Assembly: GCA_026016225.1 (NCBI GenBank)
Contig: CP061210.1
Span: 258,000-321,999, forward strand
DNA from: Candidatus Nealsonbacteria bacterium
GTDB lineage: Bacteria; Patescibacteriota; Minisyncoccia; Minisyncoccales; JANBVM01
DNA: 64,000 nucleotides
Direction: 5' to 3'
The notes below the pieces were generated by a model. It saw only the letters and a program-made list of their open reading frames with translations, had not been told where the DNA came from and searched no databases. The translations under genes were made by a program, and so were the position numbers. This document shows, in pieces, positions 10,932 to 23,351 of the stretch. Positions within the stretch are counted from its first letter, which is position 1. Each line of letters opens with the position of its first letter.

Positions 10932-12155
10932 ATGGTTAACTATCAATTACCCAAATTTAAACTGCCAAAATTGAAAGCGCCAAAAATTAAATCTTCAGGG
11001 TTGAGAAAAACAAAACTCTCTCAGATTTTAATTTTAGTTATTTTAATTTCCTCTTTTTCTGGTTTTTTGGCGGGAATAGTCTCTGGCACCTATTTTTATC
11101 AAGAAATGGTAAATCTTTTGAATAAATTAAATACCGAAATTAATAATATCAAGATAGTTCCCCAAAATAATTATCTTCCCCAGGTTTCCCAAGAACAAAT
11201 AATAGTTGAGGTTGTTGAGAAAGTTTCTCCTGCCGTTGTCAGTATTATTATCACTAAAGACCAACCAGTGTTTGAAAAAAGACAGGTTGGGGGAGGAACA
11301 GGATTTATTATTTCTGAAGATGGAATGGTTTTAACCAATAAACATGTGGTTTTAGATGAAACAGCTGAATATACCGTTTTAACATTAGATAATAAAAAAT
11401 TTCCGGCTGAAGTTTTAGCAAGAGATCCTATTCAAGATATAGCAATATTGAGGATTGGACAGGAAGAATCTGCTCCAGAAGAAATAAAACCTTTTCCAAA
11501 AATAAACCTGGGAGATTCAGATGAAATAAAGATTGGTCAGACGGCAATTGCCATAGGTTATGTTTTAGGGAAATATCAAAATGCAGTTTCAGTTGGTGTT
11601 GTTTCTGGTTTAGGCAGAACAATTATAGCTTCAGGCGGAGGGTTTTATGAGACCCTTGAAGATATAATTCAGACAGATGCTGCTATTAACATGGGAAATT
11701 CAGGAGGTCCTCTCTTAAATTTAAAAGGCGAAGTAATAGGCATTAATACAGCCATTGATATCGAAGGGCAAAATATTGGCTTTGCTATTCCCATTAATAA
11801 AGCAAAGAGAGATATTGAACAGGTTAAAGCTTTAGGTAAAATCGTTTATCCCTTTTTAGGAGTAAGGTACATCTTAATTAATGAAGATGTTCAAAGAGAA
11901 AATAATCTTGGGGTTGATTACGGAGCCTGGGTAGTATCATATCAAGGTAAGCCTGCTATTTTTCCAGACTCAGCTGCAGAAAAGGCGGGTTTAAAAGAAA
12001 GAGATATAATTTTGGAGTTTAACGGAGAGAAAATTACTATGGAGAATAGTTTAGCAAAAATCATTATAAACTATAATCCGGGGGATAAAGTTTCTTTGAA
12101 AATCTTAAGAGACAATACAGAAAAGCTTATTAATGCGACTCTGGGAGAAATGTAA
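10932..12155 (+). CDS. HtrA/DegP-family serine protease with PDZ domain
   Basis: N-terminal TM helix; TNKHV, D and GNSGGPLLN catalytic motifs; C-terminal PDZ-like region. Confidence 0.9.
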   Translation: MVNYQLPKFKLPKLKAPKIKSSGLRKTKLSQILILVILISSFSGFLAGIVSGTYFYQEMVNLLNKLNTEINNIKIVPQNNYLPQVSQEQIIVEVVEKVSPAVVSIIITKDQPVFEKRQVGGGTGFIISEDGMVLTNKHVVLDETAEYTVLTLDNKKFPAEVLARDPIQDIAILRIGQEESAPEEIKPFPKINLGDSDEIKIGQTAIAIGYVLGKYQNAVSVGVVSGLGRTIIASGGGFYETLEDIIQTDAAINMGNSGGPLLNLKGEVIGINTAIDIEGQNIGFAIPINKAKRDIEQVKALGKIVYPFLGVRYILINEDVQRENNLGVDYGAWVVSYQGKPAIFPDSAAEKAGLKERDIILEFNGEKITMENSLAKIIINYNPGDKVSLKILRDNTEKLINATLGEM

Positions 12156-14974: not shown

Positions 14975-15655
14975 ATGAAAAAAACTATTTTTAAGATTTT
15001 AGCGATTTTTTTAATAGGTATTGGTGGCGGAATTTTTGCTAACCATGTCCTGTGGCCCTATTTTGCAGAAAGACCCGTTTATATAACTGAAAAAAAAGAA
15101 ATAACTATTCAAGAAAATACTGCTTTAAAAAATGCTATTGAAAAAGTAGAAAGGACGGTCGTTGGAATTGAAACAAAGACAAAAGAAGAAATCCTGTACG
15201 GTTCAGGTTTAATTTTGACCTCAGATGGTTTAGTGGTAACCCTGGCAGAATTAGTTCCCAAAGGTGCTAATGTTAGTCTTTTTCTTGATGGAAAATCAAT
15301 CCCTTTTCAAATTTTGAAGAGAGATTTAAATAATAATTTAGCTTTAATAAAGGTTGAGAAAGATAATTTACCGACAGTGGGTTTTGCCGCATTTGAGAAA
15401 ATAAAATTAGGAGAAAGAGTTTTTTTAGTTGGTGCAACTTTTGAGGAGACAGAAGTTAAAAAAGAAACTAATGAAGGAATTGTAAAATACTTTGACAAAG
15501 ATTCCATTCGAACAAATATCTTTGAGAAAGCTTCTTTATCAGGTAGTCCTCTCTTTAATATAGAGGGTGAGGTTCTGGGATTGAATACGGTTGATTCTTT
15601 GGGAAGGGTCATTGCTATTCCCGTTACCGAAATAAGAACCTTCGCGGGATTTTAA
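14975..15655 (+). CDS. Membrane-anchored trypsin-like (S1C-like) serine protease
   Basis: N-terminal TM helix; SLSGSPLFN serine motif. Confidence 0.65.
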   Translation: MKKTIFKILAIFLIGIGGGIFANHVLWPYFAERPVYITEKKEITIQENTALKNAIEKVERTVVGIETKTKEEILYGSGLILTSDGLVVTLAELVPKGANVSLFLDGKSIPFQILKRDLNNNLALIKVEKDNLPTVGFAAFEKIKLGERVFLVGATFEETEVKKETNEGIVKYFDKDSIRTNIFEKASLSGSPLFNIEGEVLGLNTVDSLGRVIAIPVTEIRTFAGF

Positions 15656-15688
15656 CCGCGAAGAACCTTGCTTTCGCTTCGCTCAAGT
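15634..15688 (+). repeat. Composite element AAGAACC-hairpin-AGAACCTTG-N-TCGCTTCGCTC (left copy)
   Basis: Same architecture as 22873-22918. Contains the 11-mer TCGCTTCGCTC (15674-15684). Overlaps the stop codon of the protease gene. Confidence 0.7.
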
Positions 15689-15882
15689 AAAAACCTTTGC
15701 CGGTTTCTAAAGATTAAAATTATAGAATTATGAAATTAATTAATCACCAAAAAGGAAATCACTTTTTTCTAATCGATTTAATGTTTAGTTTAATCTTACT
15801 TGTAGTAATGTTTTATTTTGCAATCAGGTAGTTTCAAGCAAAAAGAATAATTAACACTTTCCTTTTTAATTTACAACAACAA

Positions 15883-15911
15883 TTAAGGACACACAGGATA
15901 GGTGAGCTTTT
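15883..15911 (-). pseudogene. Orphan copy of the last 8 codons plus stop of the LTD gene (KLTYPVCP*)
   Basis: 27/29 nt identical to 17118-17146. Both mismatches are synonymous third positions on the minus strand. No ORF upstream of it. Confidence 0.75.
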
Positions 15912-16075
15912 TTGGTTGTGGTGTCTTAGAAAGACCGTGGACAATGGTCGAATAATTATCTTAAATTTGAGTTAGAAGTGAAAATTTAAGGAATTGGACT
16001 TCTCTTCGGAGCAATATCAAAAAAGAATTTATATGTGAGTTTTTAACTAGTATGAACTAATATTCGCACTGACAC

Positions 16076-16103
16076 TTGACAAGATTCCCGATACCGGTAA
16101 AAT
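16076..16103 (+). promoter_or_regulatory. Promoter TTGACA-N16-TAAAAT, ATG 6 nt after the -10
   Basis: Read directly upstream of 16110. Confidence 0.55.
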
Positions 16104-16109
16104 TAAGGT

Positions 16110-16832
16110 ATGGCAGAAAATCTTCTAACTATAACTGAAACTTCCCAATTGACCGGTATTAACCCTGAAACTCTTAAAAAACGTTGCCAGAGTGGTTCAA
16201 TTCCTGGGGCAATTAAAAAGGGTAAAACTTGGTTGATACCTGAAAGCTCTTCGTTGGGCTTCAATAGACCAAAAGTAGGTGTTTATATTGATGGTCCAAA
16301 TCTATTACATGGAGGGCTAGAGACTGGATGGCTTATAGATTATAAAAAACTCAATAAGTTTATTAAAAAAGATTACAATCCCGTAGTTCTTTCTTATTAT
16401 GATTCTGTGGGTCATGAAAGAGATAAGAAAGGCTCATTCATAAAAAATAGCGATGGTAAATTTATACCCAGAAAAGGTCAATTAAAATTTCTAAATCTAT
16501 TAAAAGGACTAGGTTATAGGATAGTTTCTCCTTCTTTGAAATACATTTGTGGGGATATGCAAAGGCCCAAAAATACTACAGATAACCATATCAATTGGGA
16601 CGTGGCAAAAGAAAAAGAACTATGGGAACAGCTTTTTCTCTTTTCTGGAGATTCAGACTTTGAAAGGCTTGTTGATGAGGTTGTAGCATTAAATAAAACA
16701 GTTAAGATTTTCAGCTTCTCAAACCGCTTGTCTTACGAACTTAAAATTAAAGCATTTAATTCACCCCTTGTAGCGTTCACGGAACTAGAAAAACTTAAAG
16801 ATATATTAGCTCTTCCCCAGAAAAAAAAGTAG
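16110..16832 (+). CDS. Excisionase-type HTH fused to a NYN (LabA-like, PIN-fold) nuclease domain
   Basis: N-terminal LTITETSQLTGINPETLKKRCQSGSIPGAIKKGKTWLIPE (MerR/excisionase-like HTH). NYN motifs VGVYIDGPNL and FSGDSDFERLV. Confidence 0.8.
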   Translation: MAENLLTITETSQLTGINPETLKKRCQSGSIPGAIKKGKTWLIPESSSLGFNRPKVGVYIDGPNLLHGGLETGWLIDYKKLNKFIKKDYNPVVLSYYDSVGHERDKKGSFIKNSDGKFIPRKGQLKFLNLLKGLGYRIVSPSLKYICGDMQRPKNTTDNHINWDVAKEKELWEQLFLFSGDSDFERLVDEVVALNKTVKIFSFSNRLSYELKIKAFNSPLVAFTELEKLKDILALPQKKK

Positions 16833-16889
16833 AGGGGAGGGTCTTGACAAGCTCTCTTGGTTTGCTAAAGTAAAATATAAAGAACTTCA

Positions 16890-16912
16890 CCCGGCTTCGG
16901 CCGGGGTTTTTT
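16890..16912 (+). terminator. Intrinsic terminator (CCCGGC-UUCG-GCCGGG + T6)
   Basis: GC stem, UUCG loop and T-run read directly. Confidence 0.7.
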
Positions 16913-17069
16913 AAATAAACGTAAAATAGTGTCAACTGTATTTTTTCTAAGATTTTCTCTAATTTTTCTCCAATTAATAGTTTTGAATATGTCCAATAGG
17001 GGGGAGCTTTTTTCCACAGATTAAACTTGACATTTTTCTATAATAAGATAATATATAATTACTAACACT

Positions 17070-17102
17070 CCCGCCCCTAGCTTCGGCTAATGGCGGGTTT
17101 TT
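17070..17102 (+). terminator. Hairpin CCCGCC...GGCGGG + T-run, preceded by an orphan promoter (17027-17054). May also act on the convergent LTD gene.
   Basis: Stem and T-run read directly. TTGACA(17027)-N16-TAATAT(17049) lies upstream. Confidence 0.55.
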
Positions 17103-17117
17103 CGTTTTTATCCTCAC

Positions 17118-20100
17118 TTAAGGGCAAACAGGATAGGTGAGCTTTTCGTCCTCATCATTGAAAACGAAAACAGTCTTTTGGGCTTCAAATTGAGTAATTG
17201 TTTCATAAATTTTTTGACAATCAATGTTTCCTAAAAAAGAAACGGCGTAAATATTTTTTTCAATTAATGAATCTTTTATTGAAATATTAACATTTTCGCC
17301 GAGAGTAATAGCTCCAGCAGGCGGATGCTTTGTTCCTCCGTATCTAATAATTACATTTTCCAGAATAGAATCAGTAGTAGAAGAATGAAAGTAAAGATTA
17401 GCCCAATTCCCGGAAGCTGGTTGAGTGCCAGTACCGTCGTTATTTGTATCTCCTTCAACGTCATCTTTAAGAGAAGTAAAAATGATTGGTTGAGCAGGAG
17501 TTCCCCGAGCTAAAAGTTTCCCCCAAATGGTTATTCTTTTTTGATTTATTAGCTTTATTATAACCCCGGGTTCAAGAGTAAGAGTTCCTTCTCCTGAACC
17601 ATTATTATTAAAAATATAGGGTAGGTCGGCATACAAGGTTGTAGTAGAAATTTCTGTTCCAATTAAAACTCCATTATAGTTATTATTTTCCGCTGAATTT
17701 CCTCTGAAAAATGGATGGGCGGCATTAAAATAAATTGGTTTTTCATTGTTTCTGAAAATATTTTCTTCAATCTTTGAATTGGCTTCATTCGTTATATAAA
17801 TTCCATAATAATTTCCTGAGAAAGAGCAATTTTTTACCCCAAGAGTTCCTCCTTCAATAATGACAGCTTTCCCATATTTTTCATTAAGTACAGTATTAAA
17901 GTCAGAAAAAGAAACTTTATCGATAGTTGAAGAAGAGTTATTTAACCAAATTCCTATCGTGGCATTACTACTGTTTTCGAAGACAGAATCCTTAAAGCTA
18001 ATTGAATTTTCATAAACACTTATAATAATAGTTTCTGTACAATTGGAGTCCCAGCATCTTTTAGCTTTTTCAATTTTAAGGAATTCTAATTGAGAGACTT
18101 TTTGATTTTCTGGTGCATTGCTTTTAAACATAATTCCTGCCCAATTTTCATTGCTGTTTGAGGTGAAAATAATTTCTTTTCCCTCTTTGCCTACAGCTTT
18201 TAAACATCCTTCAACGAAAACCAATTTAGTAGGGGCAAATTTTAATATTACCTCAGGTTCAACATTTAAAATTTTATCTTCTGGAATATGTAATCGAGTA
18301 TTAATAATATAAGGACTGCCAAGATAAGTAAGAGTGATTTCTTCAAATTCGCTAAAAGGTAATATATTAGATGAAGAAATCTCAGTCTCAGACTTAGAAA
18401 CACTATTTTCTGCTTTTGGGGTACCATTGATTCTATTTCCTTTTGCGTCGAGTCCATTTCTGGTAATTAAATTATTACTGGCCCAATTAGTAGAGTCTAT
18501 CCCTGAAATATCTGCTTTGATTCTTTCCATTGAAATATAGGCGGGAGTGGTTGTGCCGGCAAACCAGCCTGAAGAACAATCAACAACATCAATTAGTTCA
18601 CCCTTAGCATTTCTTAATTCAATTTTTTCTCCTTTATTATTTAAAGCCCCGGTATATATTTGGTCAGCCGCTATATCAGGAAGAGTAGTATTATCATCAG
18701 TCCTTTCTAATAAGTAAAAGCCATTACCAGATATAGTGGTAGTGGTAGCTGTAGAGGTAGAAAAAATAATAGAATGAATAGTTGTTCCATGACTCCAGGA
18801 AAGAGTCCAATTATTTAAATCAATATCAGTAGAACTGGTATTATAAAGTTCAATCCACTCATCATTAGGAGAGGCTCCTGTTCCCATCCAGGCAATTTCA
18901 TTAATTAAAATTTTTAGTGGAGGTAAAGAAGGTGGGGGCGGAGGGGTTGGAGTTGTACCTCCGCCGCCTCCACCTTCGCCACCATAATATACATAATAGC
19001 CGCTGCTATTTTCCATTTTTGGTGTACCCCCGATATTGCTACTTGTTTGCCATTCTAAATTATGTTTTCGTTCCATCGTTTTTTTTGAAGAATTATCTCC
19101 AGCTTGCCAATTTGAGATAGCTAAAGCTTCATCTTGGAGATGACAATTTTCATCAAAAAGATATAATGCTTCATTTGTGTTACCAATGGCTCCAGTATAA
19201 ATTAAGTCAGCTGATAGTCCGGGTACAGAGTCGTCATTTGTTCTCTCTAAAAGCAAAAATCCACCTGGCTGAATGGTATGTTGATTATTGAAAATAATTT
19301 TTATCTTTTTATCTTTATCTAAAAGTTGCCATCCACTTAAATTAATTTCATTTCCGGAAATATTTTTTAACTCAATCCACTCATTATTCGCTGAATTAAC
19401 AGTTCCCATCCAGGCTATTTCGTTTATAATTACTTTATCTTTTACGGGAGAGCTACTGGGAATTTTTTGACACAATATTTGTTCGGTTTCTTGCTCTTGC
19501 TCGCCCTCTTTTTGTTCTGCTTTTTCTTGAGTAATTTCCTCTTGCTTCTCCTTTTCTGGTTCTTTAATTTCATTTTCTAATTTTTTAATTTTCTCTAAAA
19601 ATTTTTCAACAATGCTACTTAATTTTTCAATATCTTGTTTAATACTATTTTCTTTTTGAGAAAAGATATCAATTCTTTCAGAAATATCACCTAATAGTTT
19701 TTGTATTTTTTCTAAACTTAGGGTTGTTTTTTGTTCTGATTCTATTCTCTGTTCCTTCAATTCTTTTAAAGAATCAGTTTCTTTAATATATTCATCTAAA
19801 TTATCAGTATCTAATCTGGTTAGTTTTTCTGTTGTTTCTTCTAACTGGGCCGTTGTTCCTGAACGAAAACTAATTATAAAATGACTTAATTTTTGAGTTG
19901 CTAAATTAATTCTGGTAAATCCTTTTTTAATTGCACTTTGAGACTTCTTACCGACATCAGAAATAAAACTACCCACATTTTTTGCTCCTTCTAATAAATT
20001 CGCTAAAGACAGCTTTGTTTTATCAAACAAGGAAGGTCCAGCTTCTTTTTCAACTAATTCATATTTTTTAATTGCATAAACAAGATTCTCTCTGAGCTCT

Positions 20101-20891
20101 ACTTGAGCTTGTTGTTTGAATTCCTCACTAATTCCATGATTAGTAATATGAGGACCCCATTTGTCAAAAAGAGTAGCAAATTGAGATTCTATGTAGGACT
20201 CATTTTTTTCTTTTTTCTCATTAAAAAAGCGAAGAGTAAGTAATGGTTTAGCTGCCCAACCCATAACAATTTTTGCATCTTCCCAAGCTGTTTCGTGAGA
20301 TTCATTATTTCTTCTCATATCAAAATAAAACCATAAGCTATCATACAATTTTACTGTTCTTATATTTTCAAAGACAGTAAAGATATTAATAACTTTATTA
20401 GTAATTGAGAATGTATTTAAGGTAAGGGCTGCTGTTGGTCCCGTAATTGCCCCTGATATTACGCGTGGAATGTCGTAACCTATATTTGTGTAAAAATTAA
20501 TAAGATTTAAGCGTTCGTTTAAAACGCTGTTAAAGTAATTTCTTGCTTCTGTTTTGTATCTTTGAGAGACCACTAAATCTATTAATTCCATTTCATTTAA
20601 GGCGCTTAAAATAAGCAAGCCGTAGGTGACATTTGTCGATACTTCTCCAATGCCAATTGTTGTATTTAAAATGCTTTTTAGCTTATCTTCAGTAATGGTA
20701 AAATTCGTTAATGTTTTCATTAAATCTAAACCTGTTTTGATTTTTTCTACCTGCTTATCAGTAATTTTTATTCTTTTAGCAAAAACAAGACCTCCAAATA
20801 CAAAATTAGCGATTATTGATAGCGTAATCGCTAAAACAAAGCTTTTTTTTAGATAAGATTTAATTTCTTTAATATTGTTCTTTTTTACCAC
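17118..20891 (-). CDS. Giant membrane-anchored surface protein: helical/coiled-coil region, 2 lamin-tail domains, right-handed beta-helix
   Basis: N-terminal TM helix. INEIAWMGT...NEWIELKN (approx 19017-19433) and INEIAWMGTGASPNDEWIELYN (approx 18402-18917), separated by a G/P linker. The C-terminal half has N/S/G-rich PbH1-like repeats. Confidence 0.85.
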   Translation of the reverse strand: MVKKNNIKEIKSYLKKSFVLAITLSIIANFVFGGLVFAKRIKITDKQVEKIKTGLDLMKTLTNFTITEDKLKSILNTTIGIGEVSTNVTYGLLILSALNEMELIDLVVSQRYKTEARNYFNSVLNERLNLINFYTNIGYDIPRVISGAITGPTAALTLNTFSITNKVINIFTVFENIRTVKLYDSLWFYFDMRRNNESHETAWEDAKIVMGWAAKPLLTLRFFNEKKEKNESYIESQFATLFDKWGPHITNHGISEEFKQQAQVELRENLVYAIKKYELVEKEAGPSLFDKTKLSLANLLEGAKNVGSFISDVGKKSQSAIKKGFTRINLATQKLSHFIISFRSGTTAQLEETTEKLTRLDTDNLDEYIKETDSLKELKEQRIESEQKTTLSLEKIQKLLGDISERIDIFSQKENSIKQDIEKLSSIVEKFLEKIKKLENEIKEPEKEKQEEITQEKAEQKEGEQEQETEQILCQKIPSSSPVKDKVIINEIAWMGTVNSANNEWIELKNISGNEINLSGWQLLDKDKKIKIIFNNQHTIQPGGFLLLERTNDDSVPGLSADLIYTGAIGNTNEALYLFDENCHLQDEALAISNWQAGDNSSKKTMERKHNLEWQTSSNIGGTPKMENSSGYYVYYGGEGGGGGGTTPTPPPPPSLPPLKILINEIAWMGTGASPNDEWIELYNTSSTDIDLNNWTLSWSHGTTIHSIIFSTSTATTTTISGNGFYLLERTDDNTTLPDIAADQIYTGALNNKGEKIELRNAKGELIDVVDCSSGWFAGTTTPAYISMERIKADISGIDSTNWASNNLITRNGLDAKGNRINGTPKAENSVSKSETEISSSNILPFSEFEEITLTYLGSPYIINTRLHIPEDKILNVEPEVILKFAPTKLVFVEGCLKAVGKEGKEIIFTSNSNENWAGIMFKSNAPENQKVSQLEFLKIEKAKRCWDSNCTETIIISVYENSISFKDSVFENSSNATIGIWLNNSSSTIDKVSFSDFNTVLNEKYGKAVIIEGGTLGVKNCSFSGNYYGIYITNEANSKIEENIFRNNEKPIYFNAAHPFFRGNSAENNNYNGVLIGTEISTTTLYADLPYIFNNNGSGEGTLTLEPGVIIKLINQKRITIWGKLLARGTPAQPIIFTSLKDDVEGDTNNDGTGTQPASGNWANLYFHSSTTDSILENVIIRYGGTKHPPAGAITLGENVNISIKDSLIEKNIYAVSFLGNIDCQKIYETITQFEAQKTVFVFNDEDEKLTYPVCP

Positions 20892-21451
20892 TTTCCATTG
20901 TCAATAATATTTTCAATAAATTCTTCCGAACCACCTATTATTGCATAAATTACAGAATCTTTTTTGAAAAAATATGCAGACATACCAAGCAAAGGTACGT
21001 TCTCGTAACTTTTAATTACATCCAATTTTCCAACTTTGTCTTTACGGAAATCACCTATGAGACCAAAAGTCTCAAAGTTATTTTTTGTCCATATTTCTAA
21101 ATCTAAATTCTTTAAATTTTCTGTTTTAAATCTGTCGATAGCCATAATTCTAGACTCTCCCTTTTTTCCTTCAAAACCAATACTTGATGCTGTGTACCCT
21201 TTTTCTGTAGCTTCCGGCATGTATTTAATTTCTTCTATTCCTTCCCATTCCTTCGGTATTTCAAACTCATATCCATCTATTTTGTTCACCACTTTATAAT
21301 TACCGGTTAAGGTTTTTATTACTTTTATCCCCTCGGGTAAATTTTTATTTAAATCTTTTACATCCTTTTGGTTTTGCCAATAAAAAACCCCTCCAATAAT
21401 GAGGAGTAAAATAACAACAACCGGGATAATAAGTTTTTTAAACCTACCCAT
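20885..21451 (-). CDS. Small membrane-anchored hypothetical protein, overlaps the LTD gene start by 7 nt
   Basis: ORF with N-terminal TM helix (IIPVVVILLLIIGGVFYW). The overlap implies an operon. Confidence 0.55.
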   Translation of the reverse strand: MGRFKKLIIPVVVILLLIIGGVFYWQNQKDVKDLNKNLPEGIKVIKTLTGNYKVVNKIDGYEFEIPKEWEGIEEIKYMPEATEKGYTASSIGFEGKKGESRIMAIDRFKTENLKNLDLEIWTKNNFETFGLIGDFRKDKVGKLDVIKSYENVPLLGMSAYFFKKDSVIYAIIGGSEEFIENIIDNGKW

Positions 21452-21463
21452 ATTTTCTTAATT

Positions 21464-21539
21464 TTACAAACCTTAAACAAAAAAACAACTCTAAAGCTGT
21501 GGAAAACTCAATTCGTTACTGTATCATCTTCGACTATAT
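21464..21539. repeat. 76-bp direct repeat, copy 1 (promoter region of the LTD operon)
   Basis: Identical base-for-base to 23207-23282. Confidence 0.95.
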
Positions 21540-21605
21540 GTATATGCTTTAAGGGGAAAATTGGGGTCTTTTGAGAGCGTCCCGGAACGCCTCTTAGTCG
21601 GAACC

Positions 21606-21836
21606 TCAGATTCTTTTTAAAATCTCAAGGTATTTCTTAGAACTAATACCTAGAATTCTTAAGTTATTCCGAATAACAAAAACCGGTAGTTCTTTCTCTC
21701 GAGGAATAACTACCGGCCGTTTTAAGTCCTCCCTCCAATAAATTCGGTGGTCCCCCTTTGCTCTTTCAAAACGACAACCAATAAATAGAAGAAACTTTTC
21801 AAATTTTTTCCAATGAATGGGAGTCAAACGAGCCAT
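21606..21836 (-). CDS. hicA: HicA-family mRNA interferase toxin
   Basis: 76 aa; ...FERAKGDHRIYWRE...VVIPREKELPVFVIRNNLRILGIS matches the YcfA/HicA pattern. Confidence 0.85.
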   Translation of the reverse strand: MARLTPIHWKKFEKFLLFIGCRFERAKGDHRIYWREDLKRPVVIPREKELPVFVIRNNLRILGISSKKYLEILKRI

Positions 21837-21839
21837 ATG

Positions 21840-22127
21840 TTATCTAGCCGGGACCCGAACAGTTTGAGATTCTTGCGAAACGACTACTGGCGGAGTCCAT
21901 TTTCTTTGAACTTTTCTCCATCCCAAGTCTCGCAAAACATCGTCTAATGTGCCTTTTTTGATAAGCTCTTCAAAAAAAATATTAACGATTTCATTAAATC
22001 GTTCTCTTACTTTCTCAAAAGAATTAGCTGAAGTAGATAAATCTAGTGCTGGAGTATGGGCAACAAATTTTTTGCCTTCTCGAAGTATAGAAACTGGAAG
22101 GCTAATCTCTAACATAACCTTTCTCAT
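21840..22127 (-). CDS. hicB: HicB-like (UPF0150) antitoxin
   Basis: 95 aa; ...EGKKFVAHTPALDLSTSANSFEKVRERFNE...; sits 3 nt upstream of hicA. Confidence 0.75.
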   Translation of the reverse strand: MRKVMLEISLPVSILREGKKFVAHTPALDLSTSANSFEKVRERFNEIVNIFFEELIKKGTLDDVLRDLGWRKVQRKWTPPVVVSQESQTVRVPAR

Positions 22128-22164: not shown

Positions 22165-22180
22165 CTCTGATTTTCTCGTT

Positions 22181-22223
22181 CTACCAAAAAACCGTCCGAG
22201 AGGCGATTTTTTATGCCTCTCGG
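22181..22223 (-). terminator. Intrinsic terminator after the NYN gene (CCGAGAGGC/GCCTCTCGG + T6)
   Basis: 9-bp GC stem followed by a T-run on the minus strand. Confidence 0.65.
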
Positions 22224-22286
22224 TCCTTGAACCGAGTACAGGGTTGCTCCGCTGGCTGGACGCTATTAGAACCTGTTTGCTTGAAA

Positions 22287-22859
22287 TTATAATAAAGTCT
22301 TCTCTTTAAATTTTTCTATATCTTCTGGCAACAAAAGTCTTGATAGATTAGCGTATTTTTGTATTCCTAGAGACGGAGAGTGAGCAAAGCCGACATATTC
22401 AATCTTTTTACCTTTGTATTTTACATATCTTATGGCTGGAATTAAATCGGTATCAGAACTTACTAAAATAGCTGTATCATATAAATCATCAACAGCACCA
22501 ACAATTAAATCTACTGCGATTTTAACATCCGTACCTTTTTCTTTATAGGTTTTATCAATTGGCATTATTCTACCGCGTTTAATAATAAAACCATCATTTT
22601 TAAGATTTGAAAAGAATTTTTGCTGCCCTCTTACAAGGTTTTTACTCTTATCAGTTCCATCAAGATTTCTAAAAACTCCAGTATAATATCTTTTTGAAAC
22701 AAGTTTTCTTTTGTCACCAACTAAAAAATTTACGAACTTTTTAAAGTCAAATTTCGTTCCCCTTGGGAAAGCTATCTCTTTATCTTTTAGATAGCCATAA
22801 AAATTACTGCCATCTATATAAACAGCAACTTTTTCTTTTTTATTTTTAAAAATATCCAT
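22287..22859 (-). CDS. Stand-alone NYN (LabA-like, PIN-fold) nuclease domain protein
   Basis: VAVYIDGSNFYGYL and VSSDTDLIPAIRYV motifs. Confidence 0.85.
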   Translation of the reverse strand: MDIFKNKKEKVAVYIDGSNFYGYLKDKEIAFPRGTKFDFKKFVNFLVGDKRKLVSKRYYTGVFRNLDGTDKSKNLVRGQQKFFSNLKNDGFIIKRGRIMPIDKTYKEKGTDVKIAVDLIVGAVDDLYDTAILVSSDTDLIPAIRYVKYKGKKIEYVGFAHSPSLGIQKYANLSRLLLPEDIEKFKEKTLL

Positions 22860-22872
22860 ATGAGGCTATTAT

Positions 22873-22947
22873 AAGAACCATGCCTTCGGCAGAACCTTGA
22901 TTCTCGCTTCGCTCGAATTAAGAACCATACCTTCGGCAGAACCTTGA
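22873..22947. repeat. Two 28-nt direct repeats (27/28 identical) with a 19-nt spacer that holds TCGCTTCGCTC
   Basis: 22873-22900 and 22920-47. The first repeat plus the spacer is homologous to 15634-15688. Confidence 0.9.
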
Positions 22948-23080: not shown

Positions 23081-23206
23081 GCTTTTCTTGTGGAAAAAAT
23101 TAACTTTTCAAAGTCAGATTAACAACTAAGAGTTCGAATGTCTTGTTCGGGGTATTTGAATTTGAACACCGCTCGGGGGATAGGATTCGAACTGATATGA
23201 AATATC

Positions 23207-23282
23207 TTACAAACCTTAAACAAAAAAACAACTCTAAAGCTGTGGAAAACTCAATTCGTTACTGTATCATCTTCGACTATAT
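23207..23282. repeat. 76-bp direct repeat, copy 2
   Basis: Identical to 21464-21539. Confidence 0.95.
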
Positions 23283-23351
23283 TTAGAAGCTTTTTTTATT
23301 TTATGTTAGAATTAACAAATTAAAACAAAACTTTTGTTATTGAACAAAAGG

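What the first reader, a model, noticed from the sequence alone, without database searches (positions are those of the whole stretch)
15883..17146. 29-bp duplication of the LTD gene's last 8 codons plus stop flanks the HTH-NYN cassette
15883-15911 and 17118-17146 are 27/29 identical. On the minus strand both encode KLTYPVCP*. The two differences (GTG/GTT, TGT/TGC) are synonymous third positions. The left copy has no gene body because an in-frame stop lies 24 codons upstream. Synonymous-only divergence means the orphan copy came from a coding sequence under selection. That fits a displaced or element-borne 3' end, as in attL/attR pairs of elements that integrate into gene 3' ends. The segment between holds only the excisionase-HTH-NYN gene, two terminator hairpins and an orphan promoter.
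Basis: seen in the sequence. Interest (0 to 1): 0.7.

Follow-up and report, generated by a model that had tools for sequence, protein, structure and literature searches.

The report
Old insertion scar at LTD gene end
The 29-base repeat is real: it is a stranded second copy of the last 8 codons of a surface-protein (LTD) gene, and in three near-identical strains the same two copies bracket a slot holding completely different DNA, so it marks a known kind of feature (an insertion scar and gene-swapping hot spot), not the ends of the HTH-NYN gene cassette.

Summary
15883-15911 and 17118-17146 match at 27 of 29 bases, are unique in the window, and both read KLTYPVCP* on the minus strand. The left copy has no gene body.

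The source is a Candidatus Nealsonbacteria genome (W). Two sister complete genomes, CP179891.1 (C1) and CP179892.1 (C2), are 98-99% identical in the flanks. Both carry both 29-mers at the same two positions, with different DNA in between:
- W holds the HTH-NYN module.
- C2 holds three small ORFs.
- C1 holds a 27.7-kb island that starts with a large serine recombinase.

So the pair predates the strain split and brackets a variable slot. I found no genome with an empty site.

The strain-specific DNA does not begin at the repeats. A left pad (15912 to about 15990) is shared by all three strains, and a right pad (16923-17117) is shared by W and C2. The HTH-NYN module spans about 15991-16922.

The "synonymous-only" argument is weak. 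C1's live LTD gene ends with exactly the left-copy codons, TGC is specific to W, and GTT is shared with C2. Two synonymous changes arise by chance with p of about 0.06.

The closest analogue is the e14 prophage in E. coli icd, which leaves the icdC pseudo-3' end. This is a new member of a known kind, of moderate interest.

A side finding: the HTH-NYN family always carries a conserved promoter-hairpin RNA unit.

The parts
15883..15911 (-). Left (orphan) copy of the LTD gene's last 8 codons plus stop. It has no gene body.
   Evidence: It is present at the same position in C1 (28/29) and C2 (25/29 plus a 4-base insertion).
15912..15990 (.). Left pad: DNA just inside the left copy, shared by all three strains. 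15912-15936 is almost invariant. From 15937 divergence rises steeply towards the strain-specific cargo.
16076..16103 (+). Promoter of the HTH-NYN gene (TTGACA-16-TAAAAT). The palindrome CCGATACCGG (16088-16097) lies between the hexamers and the ATG follows 6 bases after the -10. This is a probable autoregulatory operator.
   Evidence: The same arrangement occurs in L002 and L025.
16110..16832 (+). HTH_17 + NYN protein (240 aa), the only gene between the repeats. It is specific to strain W.
   Evidence: Pfam, family alignment with invariant Asp residues, model and PDB matches 2qip and 6fdl, 90% cluster with a single member.
16844..16913 (+). Promoter-like site (16844-16871) plus a conserved hairpin YTCACCC...GGGGT with a T-run (16886-16913). 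This is the 3' element of the NYN module, either a tiny RNA unit or a terminator.
   Evidence: It is found once next to the NYN gene in 10 of the 12 closest family loci checked (not matched in L005 and L008) and nowhere else in the fetched loci. Three of 7 pairs show compensatory changes.
16923..17117 (+). Right pad, shared with strain C2. It holds the 'orphan' promoter-like site (17027-17054, broken by an indel in C2) and hairpin 2 with its T-run (17070-17110). The last ~10 bases are also similar in C1.
17118..17146 (-). Right (live) copy: the actual last 8 codons plus stop of the LTD gene.
17118..20891 (-). LTD (lamin tail domain) plus parallel beta-helix surface protein, 1257 aa. It is 98.6% identical to C1's, with patchy divergence, including a W-specific patch at 17124-17195.

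Best explanation
The two 29-mers are the scar of an old insertion into the very end of the LTD gene. Foreign DNA entered 8 codons before the stop codon. A second copy of those 8 codons plus the stop kept the LTD reading frame intact (right copy). The other copy was left stranded downstream without a gene (left copy). This is the same logic as prophage e14 in E. coli icd, which leaves the icdC pseudo-3' end. The event predates the split of three co-occurring strains. Since then the DNA between the copies has been a swap slot. It holds the HTH-NYN module in this genome, three small ORFs in C2, and a 27.7-kb island with a large serine recombinase in C1. The HTH-NYN module (about 15991-16922) is only the present tenant. 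It is a self-contained accessory unit made of an operator-promoter, a NYN nuclease and a small promoter-hairpin unit, and it encodes no recombinase. It most likely arrived by homologous recombination through the conserved flanks and pads after DNA uptake. The two base differences between the copies are ordinary synonymous polymorphisms of the live gene.

Shown: the repeat; its conservation across strains; the variable content; the true module limits; the nature of the proteins.

Inferred: that the duplication arose by integration of an element; how cargo is exchanged.
For: The repeat is unique and sharply bounded. Both copies are present at the same positions in W, C1 and C2, and the content between them is entirely different. 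The flanks are 98-99% identical. C1's island carries Resolvase+Recombinase+Zn_ribbon_recom and matches phrog_95 integrase at 1e-87. Homology break points lie inside the repeats. W-specific substitution patches sit on both sides of the cargo, at 15937-15990 and 17124-17195. That pattern is expected from import by homologous recombination rather than from a clean site-specific cut. A ComEC-type competence gene lies nearby. The same NYN module at 90% identity sits in another context in L020, and family members in other phyla sit singly among housekeeping genes. C-termini of LTD homologues commonly end in a Cys-x-Pro-like tail, so KLTYPVCP is a native LTD ending. The e14/icd/icdC precedent is described in PMC6379469 and PMC13626634.
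Against: No strain has a single 29-mer (an empty site), and no circular or attP form was found. No integrase lies between the repeats in this window. The recombinase island in C1 appears to have its own junction about 80 bases inside the left copy, at a tRNA-3'-half-like string overlapping the recombinase stop codon. The 29-mer is therefore probably not that enzyme's crossover site. Which copy is native and which was brought in cannot be decided. C1's 10 bases after the LTD stop resemble W's right flank (8/10), not W's left flank. Only three strains are available.
Confidence: 0.55

Rival explanations
1. The pair is a live attL/attR. The DNA between the 29-mers would be an integrase-less, cis-mobilisable element that a recombinase encoded elsewhere excises and re-inserts at the 29-mer core. 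That would explain why different cargo sits between the same repeats.
For: The same repeats bracket different cargo in three strains. The 25 bases just inside the left copy (15912-15936) are almost invariant, while the next 50 diverge steeply, as an arm-type site might. A weak inverted repeat links the left copy to 15915-15926 (z = -2.4). A large serine recombinase sits 89 bases from the left copy in C1.
Against: Strain-specific DNA starts about 80 bases inside the left copy and 195 bases (C2) or 10 bases (C1) inside the right copy, not at the repeats. There is no significant dyad symmetry in the reconstructed attP or attB. The C1 recombinase carries its own tRNA-like att fragment. No attP-like junction exists in IMG/VR. 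The left copy is decaying in C2.
Confidence: 0.15
2. This was a one-off, homology-facilitated illegitimate recombination. Imported DNA was anchored by homology in the LTD gene on one side and joined illegitimately 8 codons from the resident stop on the other side. No mobile element was involved.
For: A W-specific divergent patch in the last 80 bases of LTD abuts the cargo. There is no recombinase in the cassette. A competence gene is present.
Against: The duplication is shared by three strains with different cargo, so it is older than the present cargo and than W's patch. An accidental join that begins exactly at the stop codon and preserves the frame would be a coincidence.
Confidence: 0.15
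3. The left copy is the last remnant of a second, tandem LTD-family gene whose body was deleted or overwritten by later insertions.
For: Large surface-protein genes are often in tandem in these genomes. L021 has an LTD-like gene next to a NYN gene too.
Against: Similarity ends abruptly after 8 codons at near-perfect identity. There is no trace of LTD-like sequence in 15912-16100 on the minus strand. A paralogue would show graded protein-level similarity.
Confidence: 0.08
4. The repeat is a target-site duplication made when the 1.2-kb cassette transposed, with the NYN nuclease acting as the mobilising enzyme.
For: Direct repeats flank a single nuclease gene. In L021 a related NYN gene is flanked by 131-base inverted repeats and 47-base direct repeats.
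Against: 29 bases is far longer than known transposase duplications. The cassette has no terminal inverted repeats. The module limits do not coincide with the repeats. The same repeats flank unrelated cargo without NYN in C1 and C2. Other family loci have no flanking repeats. The fold is a LabA/MARF1-type RNase.
Confidence: 0.03

Closest known systems
Prophage e14 (and phage 21) integrated in the 3' end of E. coli icd, leaving the icdC pseudo-3' end (PMC6379469, PMC13626634; Hill et al. 1989 as cited there)
   Same: A live gene keeps its reading frame through a duplicated 3' end. A gene-less second copy sits at the far side of inserted DNA. The copies differ mainly by synonymous or conservative changes. 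The inserted DNA carries accessory or defence-type genes.
   Different: The duplication here is 29 bases, not about 163. No integrase lies between the copies in this window. No empty site or excision is documented. The DNA between the copies has been replaced several times among strains. The host is a Patescibacteria (CPR) bacterium.
Integration hot spots / genomic islets between conserved core genes, with cargo turnover by homologous recombination in the flanks (established concept; from my own knowledge)
   Same: The flanks are 98-99% identical, the cargo in three strains is wholly different, and divergence rises towards the cargo edges.
   Different: The slot is additionally bracketed by a duplicated gene end. 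[quoted passage not shown]
Cis-mobilisable elements (CIMEs): att-flanked, integrase-less remnants mobilised in trans (from my own knowledge)
   Same: Direct repeats flank a short segment without a recombinase. A related strain has a recombinase-bearing island between the same repeats.
   Different: The strain-specific DNA does not end at the repeats, and no trans-mobilisation or matching attP is shown.
LabA / MARF1-type NYN (PIN-like) ribonucleases
   Same: The cassette protein matches Pfam NYN, has invariant acidic residues, and its model superposes on 2qip and 6fdl.
   Different: It has an N-terminal HTH_17 domain, a palindromic operator in its own promoter, and a conserved downstream promoter-hairpin unit. 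Its function is untested.

Membership tests
Integrative element with att duplication at a gene 3' end (e14/icd type) | Direct repeats made of the target gene's 3' end, one in frame with the gene and one orphan | tested here: met
Integrative element with att duplication at a gene 3' end (e14/icd type) | A site-specific recombinase encoded between the repeats | tested here: not met
   In the window the only gene is HTH_17+NYN, which has a nuclease fold. A large serine recombinase lies between the same repeats only in sister strain C1.
Integrative element with att duplication at a gene 3' end (e14/icd type) | The repeats coincide with the limits of the strain-specific DNA | tested here: not met
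   The break points lie at about 15990 and at 16923 or 17108, inside the repeats.
Integrative element with att duplication at a gene 3' end (e14/icd type) | An empty site (single copy) or an excised/attP form exists in relatives | tested here: not met
   All three strains carry both copies. The fourth relative, L107, lacks the whole LTD block. There is no attP-like match in IMG/VR. Only a few genomes could be examined.
Integrative element with att duplication at a gene 3' end (e14/icd type) | The content between the repeats is polymorphic among close strains | tested here: met
   HTH-NYN in W, three ORFs in C2, a 27.7-kb island in C1
Transposon with target-site duplication | Short fixed-length duplication, terminal inverted repeats, and an element-encoded transposase | tested here: not met
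   The repeat is 29 bases, there are no terminal inverted repeats, and there is no transposase.
Large serine recombinase integrative element (island in C1) | Resolvase + Recombinase + Zn_ribbon_recom protein at one end of the inserted block | tested here: met
   This applies to C1 only: L104 11026-12522. It is not present in the window.
Large serine recombinase integrative element (island in C1) | The 29-mer is this recombinase's crossover site | tested here: inconclusive
   The junction maps about 80 bases inside the left copy, at a tRNA-3'-half-like string overlapping the recombinase stop. There is no dyad symmetry. Biochemistry would be needed.
NYN (PIN-like) nuclease | NYN domain match, conserved acidic active-site residues, and a PIN-like fold | tested here: met
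   PF01936 at 1e-12. D61, D158, D164, D181 and D183 are invariant. Foldseek matches 2qip at 2e-9 and the MARF1 NYN at 9e-4. Catalysis was not tested.
RNA-antitoxin toxin-antitoxin module (type III-like) | A toxic nuclease neutralised by an adjacent small RNA | not testable with these tools
   Only the conserved adjacency of a promoter-hairpin unit is shown.

The most novel reading that the evidence does not exclude
The duplicated LTD ends plus their conserved pads may form a reusable landing pad at which unrelated gene modules are exchanged among co-occurring strains of a tiny-genome CPR bacterium. [quoted passage not shown] The present tenant, HTH-NYN with its strictly associated promoter-hairpin RNA, may be an undescribed RNA-linked toxin-antitoxin or defence module conserved across Patescibacteria.
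Probability: 0.2. Interest if true: 0.6.

Novelty: new member of a known kind. Interest (0 to 1): 0.4.

Why it matters
The finding shows, base by base, how an accessory-gene slot works in a Candidatus Nealsonbacteria population. These organisms have minimal genomes and their mobile DNA is poorly charted. The same surface-protein operon is flanked on both sides by repeat-bracketed slots whose content differs between strains that are otherwise 98-99% identical. This gives concrete sites for studying gene flow, prophage or island integration, and defence-gene turnover in CPR bacteria. It also identifies a compact, widely conserved NYN-nuclease module with an apparent operator and a small RNA unit that could be tested as a new toxin-antitoxin or defence system. 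The repeat itself is an ordinary kind of feature.

Tried and rejected
1. Generic repeat or chance match. Rejected: the 29-mer occurs only twice in the window, with 0 expected. The 15-base core hits in IMG/VR are all chance, with no extended identity.

2. Assembly artefact. Rejected: an independent Logan contig and two complete sister genomes show the same arrangement.

3. tRNA or known RNA at the repeats. None was found.

4. Diversity-generating retroelement template/variable repeat. Not pursued: I did not look for an RT gene in the window, the repeat is only 29 bases, and its mismatches are not adenine-specific.

5. dif/Xer-like or recombinase-type dyad symmetry in the reconstructed attP or attB. 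It does not exceed shuffled sequences.

6. Short repeats or microhomology at the true cargo edges in W, C1 and C2. They do not exceed shuffled sequences. An eyeballed similarity did not hold up.

7. Flanking repeats as a general property of HTH-NYN genes. Absent in L002-L008 and L024-L027; only the window and L021 have them.

8. Foreign base composition of the cassette. There is none.

9. Close LTD orthologues from other species to read the native 3' end. The best hits are about 40% identical, so only the Cys-x-Pro-like tail could be compared.

10. The cassette's HTH domain as a relative of the island's 61-aa HTH_17 protein. There is no meaningful similarity.

11. Free phage forms of the C1 island. 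No close recombinase relatives exist in IMG/VR. Homologue contigs stop 17 bases after the recombinase gene.

12. A relic of the recombinase gene's 3' end inside W's cassette (15998-16042 against L104 11061-11100). The result is borderline only (z = 3.0), so I did not rely on it.

13. Literature on Nealsonbacteria prophages or NYN in Patescibacteria. Nothing relevant was found.
Full report
**1. The observation**

The window reads TTAAGGACACACAGGATAGGTGAGCTTTT at 15883-15911 and TTAAGGGCAAACAGGATAGGTGAGCTTTT at 17118-17146.
- A search allowing three mismatches finds only these two sites in 64 kb, and none in 100 shuffles.
- A self-BLAST of the window finds only one other intergenic repeat pair of this kind.
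- On the minus strand both copies read KLTYPVCP*. The right copy is the true end of a 1257-aa LTD / beta-helix protein (17118-20891).
- The left copy follows an in-frame stop 25 codons upstream and has no start codon.
- Identity stops sharply on both sides.
- A Logan contig from run DRR463595 is 100% identical across 15419-18657, so the arrangement is not an assembly artefact.

Between the copies lies one gene, HTH_17 + NYN (16110-16832). There are three promoter-like sites (16076, 16844, 17027) and two stable hairpins with T-runs.

**2. Where the window comes from and what relatives exist**

The cassette protein is 100% identical to a protein of a 661-kb Candidatus Nealsonbacteria contig; I call this genome W. 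No LTD orthologue from another species is closer than about 40% identity. However, many homologues end in a Cys-x-Pro-like tail, so KLTYPVCP is a native kind of LTD ending.

Exact-protein and cluster look-ups then found two complete sister genomes. These are CP179891.1 (C1, 694,748 bp) and CP179892.1 (C2, 653,831 bp). A fourth, more distant contig (L107) was also found.

**3.

To the left of the repeat, C1 and C2 match the window from 4975 through the left copy to about 15977-15991, at 99.3% and 98.0% identity. To the right, C1 matches from 17108 and C2 from 16923 onwards.

Both sister genomes carry both 29-mers at the same two places:

| Copy | Sequence feature | Match |
|---|---|---|
| C1 left | ...ACATAC... 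| 28/29 to W left |
| C1 right | identical to W's left copy | 29/29 to W left |
| C2 left | four substitutions plus a 4-base insertion next to it; one change non-synonymous | 25/29 to W left |
| C2 right | ...GGACAAAC... | 28/29 to both W copies |

What lies between the copies is completely different in each strain:
- **W:** the HTH-NYN gene.
- **C2:** three small ORFs of 70, 94 and 205 aa with no family match.
- **C1:** 30 genes over 27.7 kb (LTD is XOB46612, Trypsin_2 is XOB46643). The block begins 89 bases from the left copy with a large serine recombinase (Resolvase + Recombinase + Zn_ribbon_recom; phrog_95 integrase, 1e-87). It also holds a terminase-small-subunit-like protein, DNA methyltransferases, a reverse transcriptase and an AAA ATPase.

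L107 loses homology at 15837. It has neither the 29-mer nor an LTD gene within 10 kb.

Two conclusions follow. The duplication is older than the split of W, C1 and C2. And it brackets a slot whose content turns over. No genome with an empty slot was found.

**4. The repeats are not the edges of the HTH-NYN cassette**

A three-way alignment shows the following.
- 15912-15936, just inside the left copy, is almost invariant.
- From 15937 to about 15990 all three strains diverge steeply.
- After that there is no homology. I call this stretch the left pad.
- On the right, W and C2 share 16923-17117 (the right pad). It contains the "orphan" promoter-like site, which a 13-base indel breaks in C2, and hairpin 2.
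- C1 shares only about 10 bases next to the LTD stop (8/10).

Independently, a 1.6-kb contig from another sample (L020) carries a NYN gene 90% identical at the DNA level. It shares only 16275-16912 with the window and has different neighbours.

The tenant module is therefore about 15991-16922. Hairpin 1 belongs to it. Hairpin 2 and the orphan promoter belong to the slot.

**5. What the two differences mean**

Only 24.7% of single-base changes in these nine codons are synonymous. Two synonymous changes therefore have a chance probability of about 0.06, which is a weak signal.

The strain data give a simpler reading.
- TGC occurs only in W's live copy.
- GTT is shared by the live copies of W and C2.
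- The Val third position is C, T or A in the three orphan copies.
- W's live LTD carries a W-specific patch of six changes in 17124-17195, three of them non-synonymous.

So the differences are ordinary polymorphism of the live gene, within a mosaic gene. They are not evidence about the history of the orphan copy. The orphan copy shows no coding constraint in C2.

**6. What the tenant is**

The 240-aa protein belongs to a tight family of about 240 aa (43-63% identity) found in several Patescibacteria lineages.
- D61, D158, D164, D181 and D183 are invariant.
- An AlphaFold model (pLDDT 86) matches the LabA-like NYN protein 2qip (E = 2e-9) and the MARF1 NYN ribonuclease.
- It is a nuclease, not a recombinase.
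- PADLOC gives only weak NYN and "mad1" HTH matches.
- In other genomes the gene sits alone, often on the opposite strand, among housekeeping genes such as GreA, EF-P, a tRNA synthetase and NUDIX, with no flanking repeats.

Two conserved non-coding parts travel with the gene.
- **Upstream** (W, L002, L025): TTGACA-N-CCGATA(C/G)CGG-TAAAAT, with the ATG six bases after the -10. The palindrome inside the promoter is a probable operator for the HTH domain.
- **Downstream** (in 10 of the 12 closest family loci checked; L005 and L008 gave no match): a TTGACA / -10-like pair, 12-15 bases, then the hairpin YTCACCC-stem-loop-GGGGTCTTTGTTTT. A pattern for this hairpin hits once in each matching locus, right after the NYN gene, and nowhere else in the fetched loci. 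Its seven pairs are formed in 10 of 10 sequences, and three pairs show compensatory changes. Rfam has no match.

Whether this unit is a small RNA partner (for example an antitoxin) or an elaborate terminator is untested.

**7. How the duplication most likely arose and how the slot works**

A sharply bounded direct repeat around unrelated DNA points to an insertion, not a tandem duplication. A tandem duplication would have copied the gene body as well. The closest precedent is e14 in icd. There the inserted element supplies the gene's 3' end and the original end is stranded as icdC (PMC6379469, PMC13626634).

I therefore read the pair as the scar of an old integration into the last 8 codons of LTD that kept the protein intact.

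The present cargo changes do not occur at the repeats.
- Divergence rises gradually towards the cargo on the left.
- A W-specific patch reaches into LTD on the right.
- A ComEC-type competence gene is nearby.

Together these fit replacement by homologous recombination through the flanks and pads.

In C1 the island probably entered by its own recombinase. The recombinase stop codon overlaps a string that looks like the T-arm and acceptor 3' strand of a tRNA. The 72%-identical homologue P0093, seen on two contigs (L135, L136), has a cleaner version of it, and both contigs end 17 bases after the gene. This places that enzyme's attachment site at about window position 15990, not in the 29-mer.

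I cannot decide which 29-mer copy is the original. The 10 bases after C1's LTD stop resemble W's right flank. The left copy's outer flank is also conserved in all three strains.

**8. Rivals**

- **Live, trans-mobilised att pair.** Not excluded. The 25 bases inside the left copy are invariant, and there is a weak inverted repeat. The break points, the lack of dyad symmetry and the decay of C2's left copy argue against it.
- **One-off illegitimate join.** Hard to reconcile with a frame-preserving duplication that starts exactly at the stop codon and is shared by three strains.
- **Deleted tandem paralogue.** Would leave graded similarity, and none is seen.
- **Target-site duplication by the NYN protein.** Refuted by the strain comparison and the protein fold.

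**9. Verdict**

This is a new example, in a CPR bacterium, of a known kind of feature: a duplicated gene 3' end at an integration or exchange hot spot. The cassette gene is a passenger, not the agent.

Interest is moderate (0.4). It rests mainly on the clean three-strain picture of a swap slot and on the conserved NYN-plus-hairpin module.

Noticed in passing
window 21461-21550 and 23204-23293: [quoted passage not shown] It is a 90-base direct repeat with a 76-base perfect core. The left copy is the region just upstream of the 188-aa/LTD operon start. In W it brackets HicA (21606-21836), a 95-aa partner (21840-22127) and a second NYN gene (22287-22859; PADLOC HEC-09). In C1 it brackets four unrelated ORFs, and in C2 only the NYN gene. 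The two copies are more alike within a genome than between genomes, which suggests concerted evolution or re-duplication.
   Followed up: partly
window 16076-16103 and 16844-16913; L002, L003, L004, L006, L020-L025, L027: The HTH-NYN family carries a promoter with an internal CCGATA(C/G)CGG palindrome, seen in the full-length members. In 10 of the 12 closest loci checked it also carries a downstream promoter-like site plus the hairpin YTCACCC...GGGGTCTTTGTTT, with compensatory changes. This could be an undescribed nuclease plus small-RNA module. It has no Rfam match.
   Followed up: partly
L021 1505-1551/2672-2718 and 1575-1705/2470-2600: In a more distant relative, a NYN gene (63% identity, HTH deleted) also faces a huge LTD-like gene. 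It is enclosed by 131-base, 99%-complementary inverted repeats that contain about 17-base iterated motifs. Outside these are 47-base direct repeats (87% identical). This may be an invertible or mobile unit, or an assembly effect (the perfect arm is 128 bases, close to k = 127).
   Followed up: partly
L104 11000-11040 (CP179891.1); ends of L135 and L136: The 3' end of the large serine recombinase gene overlaps, on the opposite strand, a string like a tRNA T-arm plus acceptor 3' strand (GGTTCGAATCCTACCCGCGGAGC in the homologue). Homologue contigs stop 17 bases after the gene. This suggests the recombinase family targets tRNA genes. ARAGORN finds no full tRNA there.
   Followed up: partly
window 17008-17110 (+) and 23099-23015 (-): Two further mini-units have the same build: TTTTTTCCACA-N7-CTTGACA, a -10-like hexamer, about 20 bases, then a UUCG-loop hairpin and a T-run. 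The hairpin of the second unit also precedes the NYN gene of L020. Their function is unknown.
   Followed up: no
window 15634-15692, 22872-22900, 22919-22947: There are repeated intergenic elements of the form AAGAACC-hairpin-GAACCTTG(A)...TTCGCTTCGCTC. One overlaps the Trypsin_2 stop codon and two stand in tandem upstream of the second NYN gene.
   Followed up: no
window 22176-22285; L021 1449-1530 and 2655-2690; L102 (reversed) 11464-11523: A conserved element of about 100 bases (TCTACCAAAAAACCG-hairpin-...GCTCCNCTGG...GGACGNTNTTAGAACCTGTTT) lies just 3' of the second NYN gene. It recurs in L021, where it forms the direct repeats, and in C1's slot-B cargo. It has no Rfam match.
   Followed up: no
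L106 12418-12431 and L102 (reversed) ~1181-1194: The 14-mer CTGCAGAAGATGAG, with similar flanks over about 30 bases, occurs in C2's right pad and, inverted, near the right end of C1's island about 40 bases from the LTD stop. It may be a trace of an inversion or of a shared recombination site.
   Followed up: no
window 17118-20891: The LTD gene is a mosaic relative to C1 and C2. Long stretches have no differences (19700-21299). Tight patches are specific to one strain (17124-17195, 17553-17680, 18700-18899), and there is an indel pair around codons 706-734. This is consistent with frequent recombination in a surface protein.
   Followed up: partly
L105 (run DRR463594) and L001 (run DRR463595): The C1-type and W-type alleles of this locus come from adjacent sequencing runs of one project. 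The C1-type contig breaks 19 bases after the left copy. The strains with different cargo therefore probably co-occur in one system.
   Followed up: no
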